Positions 14,129 through 58,759 of a DNA stretch of 64,000 nt are shown in pieces. The stretch lies in the UHGV virus genome UHGV-2111131; one strand, given 5' to 3'. This DNA comes from a virus. Position numbers and translations under genes: made by a program. How positions within the stretch are numbered: position 1 is the first letter of the stretch; every line of letters starts with the position of its first letter. The notes under the pieces are model-generated. The model did not search any database, was not told where the DNA came from, and saw only the letters and a list, made by a program, of their open reading frames with translations.

Positions 14129-14299
14129 GTATTTTTAAGTCGCGAATGCTATCTTTTCGCATCATATTGACCTTTTAATCGTTCAGGCTTATAGTTCCGC
14201 CGTCGTAGCAAATTCTGCGACCGGGTTTAGCAGCCTGAATGATTGTGCGGACAGCCGCAGATATCCGATATTGCGGTATTTTTGTGTCCGTAAAACCGC

Positions 14300-14372
14300 G
14301 TTACGCCCAAATTATGGTGGGGCGTGATGGGGAGGCTTCGGCCTGCTGGTTTCACAATCGCCAGTCTGCTAA
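14300..14372 (+). ncRNA. c4: c4-like antisense RNA of immI (approximate bounds)
   Basis: TCACAATC (14352-14359) complements GATTGTGA overlapping the icd RBS (14425-14432); CGTGATGGGG (14323-14332) complements CCCCGTCACG (14373-14382) with one G-U. Confidence 0.4.
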
Positions 14373-14442
14373 CCCCGTCACGTCCTGCCACCTGTTTAGC
14401 AGCGGGTAGCAGGTTGTTAAACCTGATTGTGAGGCCGTAACT

Positions 14443-15781: not shown

Positions 15782-15798
15782 TTTGCTCTAATAAATTT
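15782..15798 (+). promoter_or_regulatory. C1 operator (TTTGCTCTAATAAATTT) upstream of kilA-repL
   Basis: 16/17 consensus match, 70 nt upstream of kilA. Confidence 0.6.
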
Positions 15799-15867
15799 CG
15801 TTTTCTAAGTGCAAAGAATCACCATTTCGAGCTGGTGATTGAAGGTTGATGCAAATTTGGAGAAAAA

Positions 15868-16668
15868 ATGCAACAAACATTCAATGCGGATATGAATATA
15901 TCAAACCTTCATCAAAATGTCGATCCTTCAACCACTCTGCCTGTTATTTGTGGTGTTGAAATTACGACCGACCGCGCTGGCCGTTACAACCTTAATGCTC
16001 TACACAGAGCGAGCGGACTCGGTGCCCATAAAGCGCCAGCTCAATGGCTAAGAACGCTGTCAGCCAAACAGCTCATCGAAGAGCTTGAAAAAGAAACTAT
16101 GCAGAATTGCATAGTTTCTTTCGAAGGCCGTGGCGGCGGCACTTTTGCCCATGAATTGCTCGCTGTGGAGTACGCAGGCTGGATTTCTCCCGCGTTTCGG
16201 CTGAAGGTAAACCAGACATTTATCGACTATCGAGCCGGAAGATTACAACCTGCTATTCCGCAGAGTCTCCCTGAAGCTCTCCGTTTGGCTGCCGACCTGG
16301 CAGAGCAAAAGCAACGGCTGGAGCAAAAAATGCTTATGGATGCACCTAAAGTCGAATTCGCCGAACGCGTTGCTACCGCCAGCGGAGTTCTAATCGGCAA
16401 CTATGCCAAAGTGCTCGGCCTGGGCCAAAACTATCTCTTCACCTGGTTGCGTGATAACGGAATTCTGATCGCAACCGGTGAACGCAGGAACGTCCCCAAA
16501 CAAGAATACATATCCCGTGGGTATTTCACCCTTAAAGAAACCGTGATCGATACAAGCAATGGAAGCAGGATTTCTTTCACGACTCGTATAACCGGCAAAG
16601 GTCAGCAGTGGCTGATGAAGCGATTGCTTGATGCTGGTGTGCTGGTACCTGTCGCGGCAACGCGCTAA
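15868..16668 (+). CDS. kilA: KilA-like protein (KilA-N domain plus antirepressor C-terminal domain)
   Basis: 266 aa, matching P1 KilA length; C-terminus paralogous to Ant. Confidence 0.75.
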   Translation: MQQTFNADMNISNLHQNVDPSTTLPVICGVEITTDRAGRYNLNALHRASGLGAHKAPAQWLRTLSAKQLIEELEKETMQNCIVSFEGRGGGTFAHELLAVEYAGWISPAFRLKVNQTFIDYRAGRLQPAIPQSLPEALRLAADLAEQKQRLEQKMLMDAPKVEFAERVATASGVLIGNYAKVLGLGQNYLFTWLRDNGILIATGERRNVPKQEYISRGYFTLKETVIDTSNGSRISFTTRITGKGQQWLMKRLLDAGVLVPVAATR

Positions 16669-16697
16669 CAGACGTAGTAAGAACCACCAGCATTGTA

Positions 16698-17543
16698 ATG
16701 CTGGCTAAAGTCACTTTCCTGAGCTGTATAACGATGAGCGATTTTACTTTTTCTGGCTATGAATTGGCCTGCTTTGTAACACACTCCGGTCTATCCCGTA
16801 GCGCCGGGCATATCCTGTCGCAATGTGCAAATCTCGCGGCAACAACTAGTGAATACTTCATTCACAAGCCTCACCGCCTGATCGCGGCAGAAACTGGTTA
16901 TAGCCAATCAACCGTCGTTCGTGCATTCCGTGAAGCTGTAAACAAAGGAATTCTGTCTGTAGAGATTGTTATCGGCGATCACCGTGAACGTCGCGCTAAC
17001 CTGTACCGGTTTACACCATCCTTTTTGGCCTTCGCACAACAAGCCAAAAATGCGCTGATTGAAAGCAAATTAAAGATCTCTTCAGCGGCAACCAAGGTTA
17101 AAGCTGTTCTCGCTAAGACATTGGCTTTATTTAATTTTTTATCCACACCCCCATGTCAAAATGATACCCCCTCCCCCTGTCAGGATGACGTGGCAATAAA
17201 GAATAAGAAGTCACAAGTTAAAAAAATAAAAAGATCAGTTTCCGGCGGTGCCGGAACGACCAGACTCAAAAAATTGACTTCATGGATCGCTGAGGCAAAA
17301 GCAAAGGCTGACAATCTGCGGTTATCCAAAAAACGCGCTCAAAAACATGAGTTCAAGCAGAAAGTAGAGGCGGCAGCGCGGAAATATGCTTACCTGAAGG
17401 ACAAGCGTTCTCCTGATATTGGCGGGATATCAAACTTCGATAATCTGCCGCATTGCATGACGGTAAACGAAGCTCTTAATGCGGTTTTAGCCAAAAATAA
17501 AGATAACGAACAATGGGGTATACCGGCAGGATTCAGAGGGTGA
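16698..17543 (+). CDS. repL: RepL lytic replication initiator
   Basis: 281 aa, matching P1 RepL length and position after kilA. Confidence 0.75.
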   Translation: MLAKVTFLSCITMSDFTFSGYELACFVTHSGLSRSAGHILSQCANLAATTSEYFIHKPHRLIAAETGYSQSTVVRAFREAVNKGILSVEIVIGDHRERRANLYRFTPSFLAFAQQAKNALIESKLKISSAATKVKAVLAKTLALFNFLSTPPCQNDTPSPCQDDVAIKNKKSQVKKIKRSVSGGAGTTRLKKLTSWIAEAKAKADNLRLSKKRAQKHEFKQKVEAAARKYAYLKDKRSPDIGGISNFDNLPHCMTVNEALNAVLAKNKDNEQWGIPAGFRG

Positions 17544-17593
17544 TAGATTGCTCTAATCTGGAGTCACCTGGCGTTTTCAGTTTGAGGTCGGAG

Positions 17594-17839
17594 ATGCAAT
17601 CTGATTTTTTACAGTTAGCGATCGCTTTTGCAGGATATGTTTGTATTGGCTTCTGTGTATACATGATCAGCCGAAAAATGCTTGTCGATATCGACCGCAA
17701 AGAACGAGCAGAGGAGATCTTAGTATGGATTTTCTTTGGCGCGGTCTGGCCATTAGGGATCATGTTTGCTGCAACATTTCTTCTGATGTGGATATTCACC
17801 CTTCCAGGTGATTTCTATAGAAAAAAAGCCAGACATTGA
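17594..17839 (+). CDS. Small membrane protein
   Basis: ATG at 17594 with GAGG RBS; two hydrophobic helices; track ORF starts earlier at an alternative codon. Confidence 0.4.
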   Translation: MQSDFLQLAIAFAGYVCIGFCVYMISRKMLVDIDRKERAEEILVWIFFGAVWPLGIMFAATFLLMWIFTLPGDFYRKKARH

Positions 17840-17899
17840 TACAATCGTTGCGGGTGCTTGAGGCTATCTGCTTCAGGCATTACCCGAAAAGCAGATAGA

Positions 17900-18020
17900 A
17901 GAAAGCCCCAGATAACATTACGCGTCCTGCAAGACGCTTAACATTAATCTGAGGCCATATCTATGCTTAGCATACGTAGATTAGCCTCTTACCGACCAAA
18001 AGGTCAAGGAGAAGCAGGCT
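17900..18020 (-). ncRNA. Expected position of a Sok-like antisense RNA (not delimited)
   Basis: Inference from hok/mok architecture only; no promoter or terminator identified. Confidence 0.2.
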
Positions 18021-18169
18021 ATGAAGCAGCAAAAAGCGATGTTAATCGCTCTGATCGTCATCTGTTTAACCGTCATTGTGACGGCACTGGTAACGAGGAA
18101 AGACCTCTGCGAGGTACGAATCCGAACCGGCCAGACGGAGGTCACTGTCTTCACAGCCTACGAATCTGA
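17963..18169 (+). CDS. mok-like overlapping reading frame
   Basis: 68-aa ORF, out of frame with and almost fully overlapping the hok-like ORF. Confidence 0.4.
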   Translation: MLSIRRLASYRPKGQGEAGYEAAKSDVNRSDRHLFNRHCDGTGNEERPLRGTNPNRPDGGHCLHSLRI

Positions 18170-18176
18170 AAGGTAA
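18021..18176 (+). CDS. hok: Hok/Gef-family type I toxin (51 aa)
   Basis: MKQQKAMLIALIVICLTVIVTALVTRKDLCEVRIRTGQTEVTVFTAYESER; GGAGA RBS; full-length similarity to Hok; below ORF-track size cutoff. Confidence 0.8.
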   Translation: MKQQKAMLIALIVICLTVIVTALVTRKDLCEVRIRTGQTEVTVFTAYESER

Positions 18177-18249
18177 GAGACCTGGCGGGGAGAGATCCTC
18201 GCCACTCTTCGTGTGTCAGGTATCCTCAATGCACCCTTTCCTCTCCAAA

Positions 18250-18277
18250 TAAAAAAGCTCCCGAAGGAGCTTTAAAA
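18250..18277 (-). terminator. Intrinsic terminator (bidirectional hairpin) ending the minus-strand late operon
   Basis: AAGCTCC-cgaa-GGAGCTT stem followed by T-run on the minus strand; A/T-flanked on both sides. Confidence 0.5.
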
Positions 18278-18292
18278 TACAAGGGATGACTC

Positions 18293-18802
18293 TTAATCCC
18301 ACTCAATCCAGTTGTAGACGATACGAAGTGACGGGCGCACAGCGGCAGTCACATCTTCGGTACTAAAGTCGATTGCATCACTGTAGATTTTGCAGTCCAA
18401 CATTTCAATTGTTGTAGCAGCTTTTGTCACAGCGTTAACCCCGGAAGATTTGGATTCAGGGGTAGCAGCCATCGTGATATCAACATAGTCCTTCGCCGCA
18501 ATGCGATCCTTGATGAACTGAAGAATATCGCCTTCGATAGTCTCCACGCACTGGACCTGGATTTCCCCAGAGTTTCGAATTGGTCCGTGCTGGTTGAACT
18601 TCACACCATTCGGACCATAGTCCTCCACATCCTCGCGGGTCATTTCAGGAATTTGCGACGTGCGAACCAGTACGCTGATATCTTCATGGCCTGCAAAAGT
18701 GAGCTGGAATTCAGAAGATACCAGTCGTTCGCCTTTGGCCGCGTTGGCAGTATAGCGGCCCTTAATAAATTTACGGTTTCCCTTAGTGTTATTGTGCCCC
18801 AT
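18293..18802 (-). CDS. Virion structural protein (tail-tube-like)
   Basis: 169-aa ORF in late operon. Confidence 0.55.
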   Translation of the reverse strand: MGHNNTKGNRKFIKGRYTANAAKGERLVSSEFQLTFAGHEDISVLVRTSQIPEMTREDVEDYGPNGVKFNQHGPIRNSGEIQVQCVETIEGDILQFIKDRIAAKDYVDITMAATPESKSSGVNAVTKAATTIEMLDCKIYSDAIDFSTEDVTAAVRPSLRIVYNWIEWD

Positions 18803-18813
18803 ATAAAATCCTT

Positions 18814-19395
18814 TTACTGGAACGCCCGAACAATATCGGAGCTGTTATATATCGAAGAACCGGTCAACTGGAGGTTGACGGTGTTTTTCAGGAAATGCCC
18901 ATTGCTGTCCCTGGGCGCATCGAGATCGAAACTTATGTCCTGGATAGCGACATCAATGATGTTGATCCGGCGACCAATGTTTAGCGTCACGCGCTCCGGG
19001 ATTCGACCACCAATACTGGCATCTTTAAGTTCCGGGCTAATCATCGCTGACAATGCGGCGATAGCTCCTGAAACCTCCGTGAATGGGTCAAACAAAGCGA
19101 TGAAAGTTACTGGCAGCGTGAAAGTCGGCGGTGTTCCCCCTTCCCAAACCATTAAGCTGTTCCAACGGGCAACCGACGTTGTTTCAGTACCAACCTGCGC
19201 AAAACCACTGAAGGCACCAGCAACAGATCCCATGGACATACCGGTAAACGGCGCTTCCCAATTCTGGGCCATGTTCATTGCTGCCCCCTGGCTGATATAT
19301 CCGGTAACCTGGTACTGAGAGTTCGTTAAAGTAACTTTCAGAAATGGCGATACACCGTCAGCCTGACTGTAAACCCCATAAGGTATAGGTGCCAT
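18814..19395 (-). CDS. Virion structural protein
   Basis: 193-aa ORF in late operon. Confidence 0.55.
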   Translation of the reverse strand: MAPIPYGVYSQADGVSPFLKVTLTNSQYQVTGYISQGAAMNMAQNWEAPFTGMSMGSVAGAFSGFAQVGTETTSVARWNSLMVWEGGTPPTFTLPVTFIALFDPFTEVSGAIAALSAMISPELKDASIGGRIPERVTLNIGRRINIIDVAIQDISFDLDAPRDSNGHFLKNTVNLQLTGSSIYNSSDIVRAFQ

Positions 19396-58157: not shown

Positions 58158-58379
58158 ATGCAATCCATTAACTTCCGTACCGCGCGTGGCAACCTTTCTG
58201 AAGTGCTCAACAATGTTGAAGCCGGGGAAGAGGTTGAAATCACCCGCAGAGGCCGTGAGCCAGCAGTAATTGTCAGCAAGGCTACTTTCGAAGCCTACAA
58301 AAAAGCGGCGCTGGATGCTGAATTTGCATCCCTGTTTGACACCCTGGACTCCACCAACAAGGAACTGGTTAACCGATAA
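58158..58379 (+). CDS. phd: Phd antitoxin
   Basis: 73 aa [39 protein letters not shown]; palindromes GTGTACAC/GAGTACAC in promoter. Confidence 0.9.
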
Positions 58380-58759
58380 TGAGACATATATCACCGGAAG
58401 AACTTGTTGCGCTTCATGATGCGAATATAAGCCGCTACGGCGGCCTGCCTGGCATGTCAGATCCGGGTAGGGCAGAGGCCATTATCGGGAGAGTTCAGGC
58501 CAGAGTTGCCTACGAAGAGATCACCGACCTTTTCGAAGTCTCCGCCACCTACCTGGTGGCTACAGCGAGAGGGCATATATTCAATGATGCCAATAAGCGT
58601 ACCGCGCTAAACAGTGCGCTGTTATTTCTACGCCGTAACGGGGTGCAGGTATTTGACTCCCCTGAACTGGTAGACCTTACCGTAGGGGCTGCGACCGGAG
58701 AGATATCTGTATCTACTGTCGCCGCCACGTTACGTAGATTGTATGGTTCTGCGGAGTAG
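58379..58759 (+). CDS. doc: Doc toxin (Fic-fold kinase)
   Basis: 126 aa; start overlaps phd stop; Fic-like [11 protein letters not shown]. Confidence 0.9.

What the first reader, a model, noticed from the sequence alone, without database searches (positions are those of the whole stretch)
17860..18280. Hok/mok/sok-type toxin-antitoxin locus missed by the ORF track
A 51-codon ORF (18021-18176) encodes MKQQKAMLIALIVICLTVIVTALVTRKDLCEVRIRTGQTEVTVFTAYESER, which aligns over its whole length with Hok/Gef toxins. An out-of-frame 68-aa ORF (17963-18169) overlaps it the way mok overlaps hok. A 10-bp-stem hairpin sits in the leader (17864-17900) and a bidirectional terminator follows (18250-18277). 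I do not recall a hok homologue at this position in the P1 reference, so it may be cargo giving the plasmid a second post-segregational killing module beside phd-doc.
Basis: partly seen in the sequence, partly recalled or inferred. Interest (0 to 1): 0.6.

Follow-up and report, generated by a model that had tools for sequence, protein, structure and literature searches.

The report
Known hok/sok killer module in P1-like plasmid
This is a complete, ordinary hok/mok/sok toxin-antitoxin locus sitting where reference phage P1 has three dispensable genes; the arrangement is real but already annotated in hundreds of P1-like plasmids, where it is commoner than the reference layout.

Summary
The 51-codon ORF at 18021-18176 is a Hok/Gef toxin (Pfam PF01848, 78.7 bits, E 2.4e-22). 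The canonical hok-family RNA elements surround it:
- an overlapping +1-frame mok ORF (17963-18169) with its own GAGG SD;
- an antisense Sok gene (about 17971 to 17901, minus strand) with a conserved promoter position;
- a 5' tac element (17852-63) complementary both to a 3' fbi element (18224-36) and to the anti-SD box that sequesters the mok SD.

The fold is conserved and covaries across 27 loci from six genera.

Relative to reference P1, window 17558-18250 replaces rlfA-rlfB-pmgF. It holds an 81-aa membrane ORF plus the hok cassette.

It is not new. RefSeq annotates the same peptide as "hokD" in the same repL-bplB setting in 235 complete E. coli genomes and 262 PLSDB plasmids, against 99 plasmids with the reference layout. 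One P1 record labels it MokW. Venturini et al. 2019 described the substitution.

phd-doc is also present (58158-58756), so hok/sok is a second addiction-type module. The "bidirectional terminator" is P1 backbone and convincing only on the minus strand.

Verdict: real and correctly interpreted, but already known. Low interest.

The parts
17558..18250 (.). Segment that replaces P1 rlfA-rlfB-pmgF (693 bp here against 1826 bp in NC_005856)
   Evidence: blastn against the P1 reference: homology 15800-17557 and 18251-19000 only. Junction alignments.
17547..17557 (+). ATTGCTCTAAT, the retained left 11 nt of the P1 C1 operator Orlf (Op55) at the left junction
   Evidence: Alignment with P1 and P1 annotation of the operator at 51575-51591. 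The right 6 nt differ, and C1 binding was not tested.
17594..17839 (+). 81-aa predicted membrane protein of unknown function. It is a neighbour, not part of the TA module. The 108-codon ORF starting at 17513 is the mechanical extension.
   Evidence: RefSeq calls WP_001426344.1 at the equivalent position. phrog_3772 E 1.7e-53 over residues 28-108. Found only in P1-like phages.
17818..17845 (+). Candidate hok promoter: TAGAAA, 16-nt spacer, TG-extended TACAAT; +1 predicted at about 17852
   Evidence: Consensus scan. Homology among hok loci begins at about 17849-17851. The Rfam model starts at 17852.
17852..18236 (+). Full-length hok mRNA unit, from tac to fbi. The conserved block is shared with hok loci of Escherichia, Shigella, Kluyvera, Citrobacter, Photorhabdus, Erwinia and Kalamiella.
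   Evidence: blastn limits, ref positions about 10-12 to 397. MFE -165.7 kcal/mol, z -8.25. 86.3% of cells paired across 27 loci against about 41% in slid controls.
17852..17863 (+). tac (translational activator) element GGGUGCUUGAGG
   Evidence: Pairs with fbi in the full-length fold (P = 0.996) and with ucb in the nascent and truncated RNA. Pair 7/406 is U-A in 19 loci and C-G in 6 loci.
17864..17898 (+).
   Evidence: Helix 2 is 92% paired, with 2 pairs changed on both sides.
17903..17909 (+). ucb / anti-SD box (AAGCCCC)
   Evidence: Pairs with the mok SD in the full-length fold and with tac in the 61-nt nascent fold. GCCCC is invariant in the alignment.
17901..17971 (-). Sok antisense RNA (about 71 nt). 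It covers the mok SD and the mok AUG.
   Evidence: Coordinates transferred from the annotated sokW of 933W. The fold is a long hairpin plus a U-rich tail, -31.9 kcal/mol, z -5.6.
17978..18007 (-). sok promoter by positional homology: -35 TTGACC (18007 to 18002), 18-nt spacer, -10 TAATCT (17983 to 17978)
   Evidence: TTG and the TAnnnT pattern are conserved across the 27 loci. It falls below the consensus-scan threshold, so it is inferred, not shown.
17951..18169 (+). mok: SD GAGG 17951-17954, ATG 17963, 68 codons, stop TGA 18167-18169, +1 frame relative to hok
   Evidence: The mok ATG is conserved in 26 of 27 loci. The product matches phrog_37205 (E 8e-21).
18006..18176 (+). hok: SD AAGGAG 18006-18011, ATG 18021, 51 codons, stop TAA 18174-18176
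   Evidence: Pfam PF01848 78.7 bits. 42% identical to R1 Hok. 92-94% identical to HokW and to chromosomal E. coli copies.
18159..18162 (+). UACG at the Tyr47 codon: the position reported to be recoded Tyr to Cys by TadA A-to-I editing in hokC/D/E
   Evidence: TACGAA is invariant in 27 loci. The editing statement comes from preprint 10.1101/2025.08.07.668861. Editing was not tested here.
18183..18204 (+). GC-rich 3' stem-loop, the expected 3' end of the processed (truncated) mRNA
   Evidence: Helix 17 is 88% paired with 4 pairs changed on both sides. The role of this stem in R1 is described in PMC9841398.
18224..18236 (+). fbi (fold-back inhibitory) element CCUCAAUGCACCC
   Evidence: Conservation among loci ends exactly here.
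18254..18273 (-). P1-backbone terminator hairpin downstream of bplB. It may also stop hok transcripts weakly.
   Evidence: Called only on the minus strand. Identical in reference P1. Folds.

Best explanation
This is an intact hok/mok/sok type I toxin-antitoxin cassette of the hokD/hokW clade, carried as accessory cargo by a P1-like phage-plasmid in the variable slot between repL and bplB.

The inferred mechanism follows the R1 paradigm:
1. A weak constitutive promoter (17818-17845) makes a stable full-length mRNA (about 17852-18236 or a little longer).
2. In that mRNA the 5' tac pairs with the 3' fbi, and the mok SD is locked by the GCCCC anti-SD box, so neither mok nor hok is translated.
3. 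Slow 3' trimming back to the 18183-18204 stem-loop removes fbi. tac can then pair with the anti-SD box, which exposes the mok SD and the Sok target.
4. While the plasmid is present, the short-lived Sok RNA (about 17971 to 17901, minus strand) pairs over the mok SD and AUG, blocks mok translation, and so blocks the coupled hok translation. The duplex is degraded.
5. If Sok supply stops, through plasmid loss or transcription shut-off, the stable mRNA pool is translated. The 51-aa Hok peptide inserts in the inner membrane and kills the cell.

On a roughly one-copy plasmid prophage this gives a second post-segregational killing module beside phd-doc.

Shown here: sequence membership, the architecture, conserved and covarying RNA structure, the in-silico conformational switch, and the genomic context.

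Inferred, not shown: transcript ends, Sok expression and half-life, toxicity, and the PSK phenotype.
For: Toxin: PF01848 78.7 bits against a cutoff of 22. TRKDLCEV and YE motifs are conserved across 27 homologues.

Leader: Rfam RF01794 114.9 bits against 59.

The locus is 86.5% identical over 17840-18236 to the hokW/mokW/sokW locus of 933W. Its Sp5 counterpart was shown experimentally to be a type I TA (PMC8621323).

mok ATG and SD, hok SD, and the sok -35 and -10 positions align with those of 933W and an R1-type locus.

tac/fbi pairing has P = 0.996 in the full-length RNA. The tac/ucb state costs +12.9 kcal/mol with fbi present but only +1.0 kcal/mol after truncation.

The structure is kept in 86.3% of cells across 27 loci against about 41% when slid. 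Thirty-four pairs show changes on both sides, and 0 of 500 shuffles reach the covariation score.

Conservation among loci from different genera begins at the predicted +1 and ends at fbi.

The same junctions occur at 99% identity or more in 262 PLSDB plasmids and 235 complete E. coli genomes. Against 99 plasmids with the reference layout, this suggests the insert is not deleterious and may help persistence.

The displaced genes rlfA, rlfB and pmgF are non-essential in P1 (PMC10695390).

The family's defining elements are taken from PMC9841398.
Against: No expression or phenotype data exist for this copy.

The sok promoter matches consensus poorly (-10 TAATCT is 3 of 6, with an 18-nt spacer) and was not called by the scan.

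The MFE of the truncated RNA does not itself adopt the open tac/ucb state. That state is 1.0 kcal/mol higher, with P about 0.15.

The cassette has no terminator of its own. The P1 hairpin is weak in the plus direction.

The clade it belongs to is typical of chromosomes and prophages. Tested chromosomal hok loci (hokA, hokB, hokC) reportedly failed to mediate PSK, as summarised in preprint 10.1101/2025.08.07.668861. The nearest characterised relative, hokW-sokW, was linked to phage release rather than maintenance.

Near-identity of the plasmid copies means recent spread, so prevalence is weak evidence of selection.
Confidence: 0.8

Rival explanations
1. Same molecular module, but its selected role in the phage-plasmid is to help lysis and virion release on induction, as reported for hokW-sokW of prophage Sp5, rather than to kill plasmid-free segregants. 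Sok would fall on induction and Hok would weaken the membrane early.
For: The nearest characterised relative (86.5% nt identity) loses sokW RNA and makes HokW after mitomycin C in a RecA-dependent way. Phage yield halves when that locus is deleted (PMC8621323).

Here the cassette lies on the same strand as, and directly downstream of, the C1-repressed kilA-repL lytic operon (operator at 15782-15798). Only two weak 5-bp terminator-like hairpins lie between them. Sense read-through could therefore run into the sok promoter on induction.
Against: P1 has its own holin, endolysin and accessory lysis genes. No data exist for any P1-like element. The read-through idea is inference from orientation only. 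This role is not exclusive of PSK.
Confidence: 0.25
2. The module serves mainly as an abortive-infection or exclusion device against other phages. Host transcription shut-off by an invading phage depletes Sok and triggers Hok.
For: [quoted passage not shown]
Against: The reported effect is modest and came from a high-copy plasmid. The same preprint found no enrichment of hok near defence systems. The copy here is single and low-dose. Nothing in the window links it to a defence island.
Confidence: 0.1
3. The cassette is a passenger that is transcriptionally or functionally inert, like several chromosomal hok loci, and is simply hitch-hiking in a recombination hot spot of P1-like genomes.
For: rlfA-rlfB-pmgF is one of eight highly variable regions of P1-like phage-plasmids (PMC9603915). 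RCS47 and SJ46 carry decayed versions that keep 17724-17983 but have lost the hok ORF. Chromosomal hokA, hokB and hokC could not mediate PSK. The sok promoter match is weak.
Against: Every known functional element is intact in this copy: both ORFs are open, both SDs are present, tac, fbi and ucb are complementary, and the 3' stem is present. A toxin with no working antitoxin would be counter-selected. A dead toxin would be expected to accumulate lesions, and none is seen in the 100%-identical copies.
Confidence: 0.1

Closest known systems
hokW/mokW/sokW of Stx2 phages 933W and Sp5 (VT2-Sakai)
   Same: The two loci are 86.5% nt identical over the whole transcript, 17840-18236. The toxin is 47 of 51 aa identical. 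The tac, fbi, mok ATG and long Sok hairpin are the same. It is phage-borne and experimentally a type I TA (PMC8621323).
   Different: In 933W mok is in frame with hok, giving a 70-aa N-extended Hok. Here a 1-nt insertion at 18004 puts mok in the +1 frame (68 aa) and also changes the sok -35 from TTGCCT to TTGACC. The Sok 5' recognition region differs at about 7 of 24 positions. The host element is a lambdoid integrated prophage, not a plasmid prophage. The demonstrated role there is phage release.
hok/sok (parB) of plasmid R1, the archetype
   Same: The architecture is the same. It has an out-of-frame overlapping mok (70 codons in R1 by my recollection of the sequence, 68 here). It has an antisense Sok over the mok SD and AUG. 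It has tac/fbi long-range pairing, an anti-SD box, and a 3' stem-loop. It sits in a plasmid context, so post-segregational killing is the expected role.
   Different: The toxin is only 42% identical. The Sok and target hairpin here carries about 18-20 extra nt. R1-type loci have their own strong terminator after fbi, whereas this cassette ends at fbi and abuts the P1 bplB terminator. tac/fbi is 12 bp with one bulge here, against about 7 bp in R1.
Chromosomal E. coli hokD (relF) clade
   Same: Chromosomal E. coli and Shigella copies give a toxin 48 of 51 aa identical and 88% nt identity over the transcript. RefSeq names this plasmid copy hokD.
   Different: The location differs (chromosome or cryptic prophage). 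From memory (Pedersen and Gerdes 1999), the K-12 hokD copy lacks the upstream regulatory region. NCBIfam HMM scores for this peptide are below the curated cutoffs (49.5 against 73 for the Hok subfamily model). The 'HokD' label therefore rests on close sequence identity, not on an equivalog model.
phd-doc of P1
   Same: Both are addiction modules on the same replicon. phd-doc is present in the window at 58158-58756. The expected phenotype, killing or arrest of cured cells, is the same.
   Different: phd-doc is type II (a protein antitoxin degraded by ClpXP, with Doc a Fic-family kinase; established knowledge). The two are unrelated in sequence and mechanism.

Membership tests
[quoted passage not shown] | Toxin of about 50 aa matching the Hok/Gef profile above the curated threshold | tested here: met
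   78.7 bits against gathering score 22, profile 1-42 of 42. PHROG 251 E 4.9e-32.
[quoted passage not shown] | Overlapping mok reading frame with its own SD, starting upstream of hok and running across the hok SD and start | tested here: met
   GAGG 17951-54, ATG 17963, open to 18169. The ATG column is conserved in 26 of 27 loci. The frame varies among loci but always crosses the hok SD.
[quoted passage not shown] | cis-encoded antisense Sok RNA complementary to the mok SD and AUG, with its own promoter and a terminal hairpin plus U tail | tested here: met
   Positional homology to the annotated sokW. Hairpin z -5.6. The -35 TTG and the -10 TAnnnT are conserved. Expression itself cannot be tested here, and the promoter is weak by consensus.
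[quoted passage not shown] | Long-range 5' tac / 3' fbi pairing that closes the full-length mRNA | tested here: met
   12 bp with one bulge; P = 0.996. Helix 1 is 90% paired in 27 loci with U-A to C-G covariation. Further compensatory changes are visible in the Photorhabdus and Citrobacter ends.
[quoted passage not shown] | Anti-SD (ucb) sequestering the mok SD, and a tac/ucb alternative pairing that becomes accessible after 3' truncation | tested here: met
   In silico only. The SD is paired to GCCCC in the full-length fold. The tac/ucb state costs +12.9 kcal/mol in the full-length RNA against +1.0 kcal/mol in the truncated RNA.
[quoted passage not shown] | Leader RNA matching the Rfam covariance model above the gathering score | tested here: met
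   114.9 bits against 59. Note that the model matches the hok-sense strand.
[quoted passage not shown] | Differential RNA stability, 3' processing, RNase III cleavage of the duplex, and killing of plasmid-free cells | not testable with these tools
   Needs northern blots or rifampicin chase, and plasmid-loss assays.
HokD equivalog (name given by RefSeq) | Score above a curated NCBIfam cutoff for a named Hok subfamily | tested here: not met
   Best hits are NF007279 at 49.5 bits (cutoff 73) and HokA NF007290 at 38.1 bits (cutoff 89). The hokD name in RefSeq must come from another naming rule. Clade assignment rests on 94% aa identity to chromosomal copies.
Reference P1 (NC_005856) gene order repL - rlfA - rlfB - pmgF - bplB | Presence of rlfA, rlfB and pmgF between repL and bplB | tested here: not met
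   Homology breaks at 17557 and 18251. The flanks are 98-99% identical to P1.

The most novel reading that the evidence does not exclude
In P1-like phage-plasmids the hok/sok cassette may be wired into the lysis-lysogeny switch. It sits co-directionally at the end of the C1-repressed kilA-repL operon, with no strong terminator in between and with the conserved half of the Orlf C1 operator retained at the junction. On induction, sense read-through would then collide with the sok promoter, which is embedded in the mok/hok start region, and occlude it. Sok would drop and Hok would be released. One cassette would thus serve as a post-segregational killer in lysogeny and as a lysis or commitment helper on induction. 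This would generalise the hokW-sokW observation and give it a mechanism.
Probability: 0.15. Interest if true: 0.45.

Novelty: already known. Interest (0 to 1): 0.12.

Why it matters
As a finding it matters little. It is a textbook type I toxin-antitoxin locus that public annotation already labels, in a variable region already described.

Three modest points of value remain:
- The reference P1 genome is unrepresentative at this locus. The hok-bearing layout outnumbers the rlfA-rlfB-pmgF layout about 2.6 to 1 among PLSDB plasmids. Anyone modelling stability of P1-like plasmids, which are important carriers of ESBL and mcr genes, should count two addiction modules, not one.
- Small-ORF and RNA annotation is uneven. 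Phage records leave the locus unlabelled or call the hok ORF 'MokW', and none annotates mok or Sok.
- The co-directional placement behind the C1-controlled lytic replicon offers a simple test of whether phage-borne hok/sok modules respond to induction.

Tried and rejected
(1) Chance ORF or spurious similarity. Rejected by Pfam, Rfam and PHROG scores and by structural covariation.

(2) A locus new to P1-like elements. Rejected, because it is annotated in RefSeq and GenBank and described in print.

(3) The 108-codon ORF at 17513-17839 as part of a mobile two-gene hok module. Rejected. Homology to non-P1 hok loci starts only at about 17840-17850. The ORF, more likely 81 aa from 17594, occurs only in P1-like phages. 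Its function stayed unknown (only a sub-threshold Pfam hit and no NCBIfam hit).

(4) The hairpin at 18254-18273 as the cassette's own bidirectional terminator. Rejected. It is P1 backbone and convincing only on the minus strand.

(5) The Rfam 'sok' hit as direct evidence of the antisense gene. Set aside, because the model matches the sense strand and so supports the hok leader. Sok was placed by homology to the annotated sokW instead.

(6) Expecting the truncated mRNA's MFE to show the open state. It did not. Constrained folding showed the open state is near-isoenergetic only after truncation.

(7) The NCBIfam HokD equivalog test gave sub-threshold scores.

(8) The consensus promoter scan did not find the sok promoter. 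It was located by alignment.

(9) Three literature calls failed on term syntax.

(10) I did not use the large protein-database searches, structure prediction or fold search. The family assignment was already unambiguous and they would not have changed the verdict.

Full report
OBSERVATION. The ORF listing returns the 51-codon ORF 18021-18176 (+) with the quoted translation, and the 68-codon ORF 17963-18169 in the +1 frame. The peptide matches Pfam HOK_GEF over the entire 42-position profile (78.7 bits, gathering score 22, E 2.4e-22). It also matches PHROG 251 'MokW-like host killing' (E 4.9e-32). Rfam RF01794 ('sok') matches 17852-18026 at 114.9 bits (gathering 59). That match is on the plus strand and runs to the hok AUG, so it models the hok leader rather than the antisense RNA itself. 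The 10-bp leader hairpin (17864-73 with 17889-98) and the 8-bp hairpin at 18254-73 are real.

CONTEXT. The window is a P1-like phage-plasmid. kilA, repL, bplB, pmgG, genes 21 and 22, the C4 antisense RNA and its targets, three tRNAs, and phd-doc (58158-58756) are all present.

Against reference P1 (NC_005856), homology runs to 17557 and resumes at 18251. So 693 bp here replace the 1826 bp holding rlfA, rlfB and pmgF. The left break lies inside the C1 operator Orlf, and its conserved left 11 nt, ATTGCTCTAAT (17547-57), remain. The right break lies just before the hairpin downstream of bplB. That hairpin is therefore P1 backbone, not part of the insert. It scores as a terminator only on the minus strand.

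The insert has two parts. The first is an 81-aa predicted membrane protein (17594-17839; RefSeq WP_001426344.1; phrog_3772, function unknown) found only in P1-like phages. The second is the hok cassette.

ANATOMY OF THE CASSETTE. Homology to hok loci elsewhere begins at about 17840-17851 and ends at 18236, for 933W and for 47 loci from GTDB genomes. Those limits are the predicted transcript start and the fbi element.

The features, in order, are:
- candidate hok promoter: TAGAAA, 16-nt spacer, TG-extended TACAAT (17818-45), with +1 at about 17852;
- tac: GGGUGCUUGAGG (17852-63);
- leader hairpin (17864-98);
- anti-SD box: AAGCCCC (17903-09);
- mok SD: GAGG (17951-54);
- mok: ATG 17963, stop 18167-69;
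- hok SD: AAGGAG (18006-11);
- hok: ATG 18021, stop 18174-76;
- GC-rich 3' stem-loop (18183-204);
- fbi: CCUCAAUGCACCC (18224-36).

On the minus strand, transferring the annotated sokW coordinates of 933W places Sok at about 17971 to 17901, across the mok AUG and SD. It folds as a long hairpin with a U-rich tail (-31.9 kcal/mol, z -5.6). Its promoter by alignment is TTGACC (18007-02), an 18-nt spacer, then TAATCT (17983-78). The TTG and the TAnnnT pattern are conserved in 27 loci, but the match to consensus is too weak for the scan to call. The promoter is therefore inferred.

RNA STRUCTURE. The full transcript folds to -165.7 kcal/mol (z -8.25), with the 5' end paired to the 3' end and the mok SD paired to GCCCC.

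I aligned 27 non-identical loci from Escherichia, Shigella, Kluyvera, Citrobacter, Photorhabdus, Erwinia and Kalamiella and projected the window's MFE structure onto the alignment. Of all cells, 86.3% form standard pairs, against 39-44% when partners are slid by 1-3 columns. Thirty-four pairs have changes on both sides, against 10-18 in the slid controls. The covariation score is 0.168, against about 0.07, and 0 of 500 shuffles reach it. The structure was derived from one member of the alignment, which inflates the paired percentage somewhat, but the doubled covariation is not explained by that.

Covariation is plain in tac/fbi. Escherichia has GGGUGCUUGAGG with CCUCAA-GCACCC. Photorhabdus has GGGCGCUUGAGA with UCUCAAGCGCCC. 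Citrobacter has ...GAAG with CUUC....

The R1 model (Le Rhun et al. 2022, PMC9841398) requires tac to be able to pair with either fbi or the anti-SD box. The 61-nt nascent RNA does pair tac with AAGCCCC. In constrained folds, the tac/ucb state costs +12.9 kcal/mol while fbi is present (P of tac:fbi = 0.996). After truncation at 18208 it costs only +1.0 kcal/mol (P about 0.15). The unconstrained MFE of the truncated RNA did not itself show the open state, so the switch is thermodynamically permitted rather than demonstrated.

MOK. The mok ATG column is conserved in 26 of 27 loci, but the frame differs:
- It is in frame with hok in 18 loci, giving an N-extended Hok as annotated for mokW.
- It is an intact +1-frame ORF of 55-68 codons in the window and two others. 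By my recollection of the R1 sequence, this is the same arrangement as the 70-codon R1 mok.
- It is a 19-codon ORF ending at the hok ATG in five loci.
- One locus (L025) has ATA in place of the mok ATG.

In every locus with an intact start, the ORF crosses the hok SD. That fits a translational-coupling role rather than a conserved Mok peptide. The indel responsible in the window is the T at 18004. It lies inside the sok -35 hexamer on the other strand, giving TTGACC with an 18-nt spacer here and TTGCCT with a 17-nt spacer in 933W.

HOW IT MOST LIKELY WORKS. Every family feature that can be checked in silico is met, and the nearest relative is an experimentally verified type I TA (Takada et al. 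2021, PMC8621323). I therefore assign the canonical mechanism:
- The full-length mRNA is stable but translationally closed.
- Slow 3' trimming opens it.
- Labile Sok blocks mok, and so blocks the coupled hok translation, and triggers degradation of the duplex.
- When Sok supply stops, Hok is made and kills the cell through the inner membrane.

On a unit-copy plasmid prophage the natural consequence is post-segregational killing, in addition to phd-doc. Which biological role is selected remains open:
- hokW-sokW aids phage release on induction.
- R1 hok/sok weakly excludes T4 (cited).
- Chromosomal hok loci tested did not give PSK (preprint 10.1101/2025.08.07.668861).

These are kept as rival explanations. 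The same preprint reports TadA A-to-I recoding of a Tyr codon to Cys at position 46 in hokC, hokD and hokE. The corresponding UACG (Tyr47, 18159-62) is present here, and TACGAA is invariant in all 27 loci. Editing was not tested.

WHAT IS KNOWN. The identical 901-bp interval spanning both junctions occurs at 99% identity or more in 262 PLSDB plasmids and in 235 of 5426 complete E. coli genomes. RefSeq labels it 'hokD: type I toxin-antitoxin system toxin HokD'. Only 99 PLSDB plasmids carry the reference rlfA-rlfB-pmgF interval, so the hok layout is the commoner one.

Six phage records share the layout: phi456, vB_EcoM-Ro157c2YLVW (two accessions) and three records named P1. One of them labels the hok ORF 'MokW'.

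In print:
- Venturini et al. [quoted passage not shown]
- Yang et al. 2022 (PMC9603915) list rlfA-rlfB-pmgF among eight highly variable regions of P1-like phage-plasmids.
- All three displaced genes are non-essential in P1 (PMC10695390).

RCS47 and SJ46 carry decayed forms that retain 17724-17983 but lack the toxin ORF.

VERDICT. The finding is already known, so I score interest at 0.12. The least ordinary reading that the data leave open is that co-directional placement behind the C1-repressed kilA-repL operon couples Hok release to induction. The operator is at 15782-98, and no strong plus-strand terminator lies before hok. I give that reading about 0.15 probability.

Noticed in passing
window 18004 (within 18002-18007): A single extra T, relative to 933W and an R1-type locus, shifts mok from in frame to the +1 frame. 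On the other strand it also changes the sok -35 from TTGCCT (17-nt spacer) to TTGACC (18-nt spacer). One indel therefore touches two overlapping functions.
   Followed up: partly
alignment A4 of 27 hok loci (window 17963 column): The mok start codon is conserved in 26 of 27 loci, but its frame relative to hok takes all three values. Eighteen loci are in frame, three (including the window) have an intact +1-frame ORF of 55-68 codons, five have a 19-codon ORF ending at the hok ATG, and one locus has lost the ATG. This argues for coupling rather than a Mok peptide function.
   Followed up: partly
L005 (RCS47, FO818745) 1501-1760 = window 17724-17983; also SJ46: RCS47 and SJ46 keep the hok promoter, the leader, the sok gene and the sok -10, but have lost the hok ORF and the sok -35. 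RCS47 also has ISEc46 inserted after repL. These look like decayed descendants of the same insert.
   Followed up: partly
window 17547-17557: The conserved left 11 nt (ATTGCTCTAAT) of the P1 C1 operator Orlf/Op55 survive at the left junction, just upstream of the 81-aa ORF. Whether C1 still binds there is unknown.
   Followed up: no
window 17594-17839: An 81-aa predicted two-helix membrane protein (phrog_3772, WP_001426344.1) of unknown function is found only in P1-like phages. SJ46 has a 44%-identical homologue at the same position.
   Followed up: partly
window 17852-18026 (+): Rfam family RF01794, named 'sok antitoxin', matches the hok-sense strand and extends to the hok AUG. A hit to it locates the hok leader and does not show which strand encodes the antitoxin.
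   Followed up: yes
window 18159-18162: The Tyr47 codon UAC followed by G sits in CCUACGAAU, and TACGAA is invariant in all 27 loci. This is the position reported to be recoded to Cys by TadA editing in hokC, hokD and hokE.
   Followed up: no
window 17948-17971 (Sok 5' region): The 5' recognition part of Sok is the most variable part of the locus between otherwise near-identical E. coli hok loci (about 7 of 24 differences from 933W), while the Sok stem is almost invariant. This may limit cross-talk with chromosomal or prophage sok copies, of which E. coli genomes with a match have a median of two.
   Followed up: no
window 15782-15798 to 17852: The C1 operator of PkilA is intact (1 mismatch to consensus). 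Only two weak 5-bp terminator-like hairpins (16755-69 and 17796-811) lie on the plus strand between it and hok.
   Followed up: partly
window 14189-14395; 34917-36574; 58158-58756: Other P1 landmarks are present: the C4 antisense RNA and its a1/b1 targets, three tRNA genes, and phd-doc (Phd 100% and Doc 96% identical to the sequences I recalled for P1).
   Followed up: no
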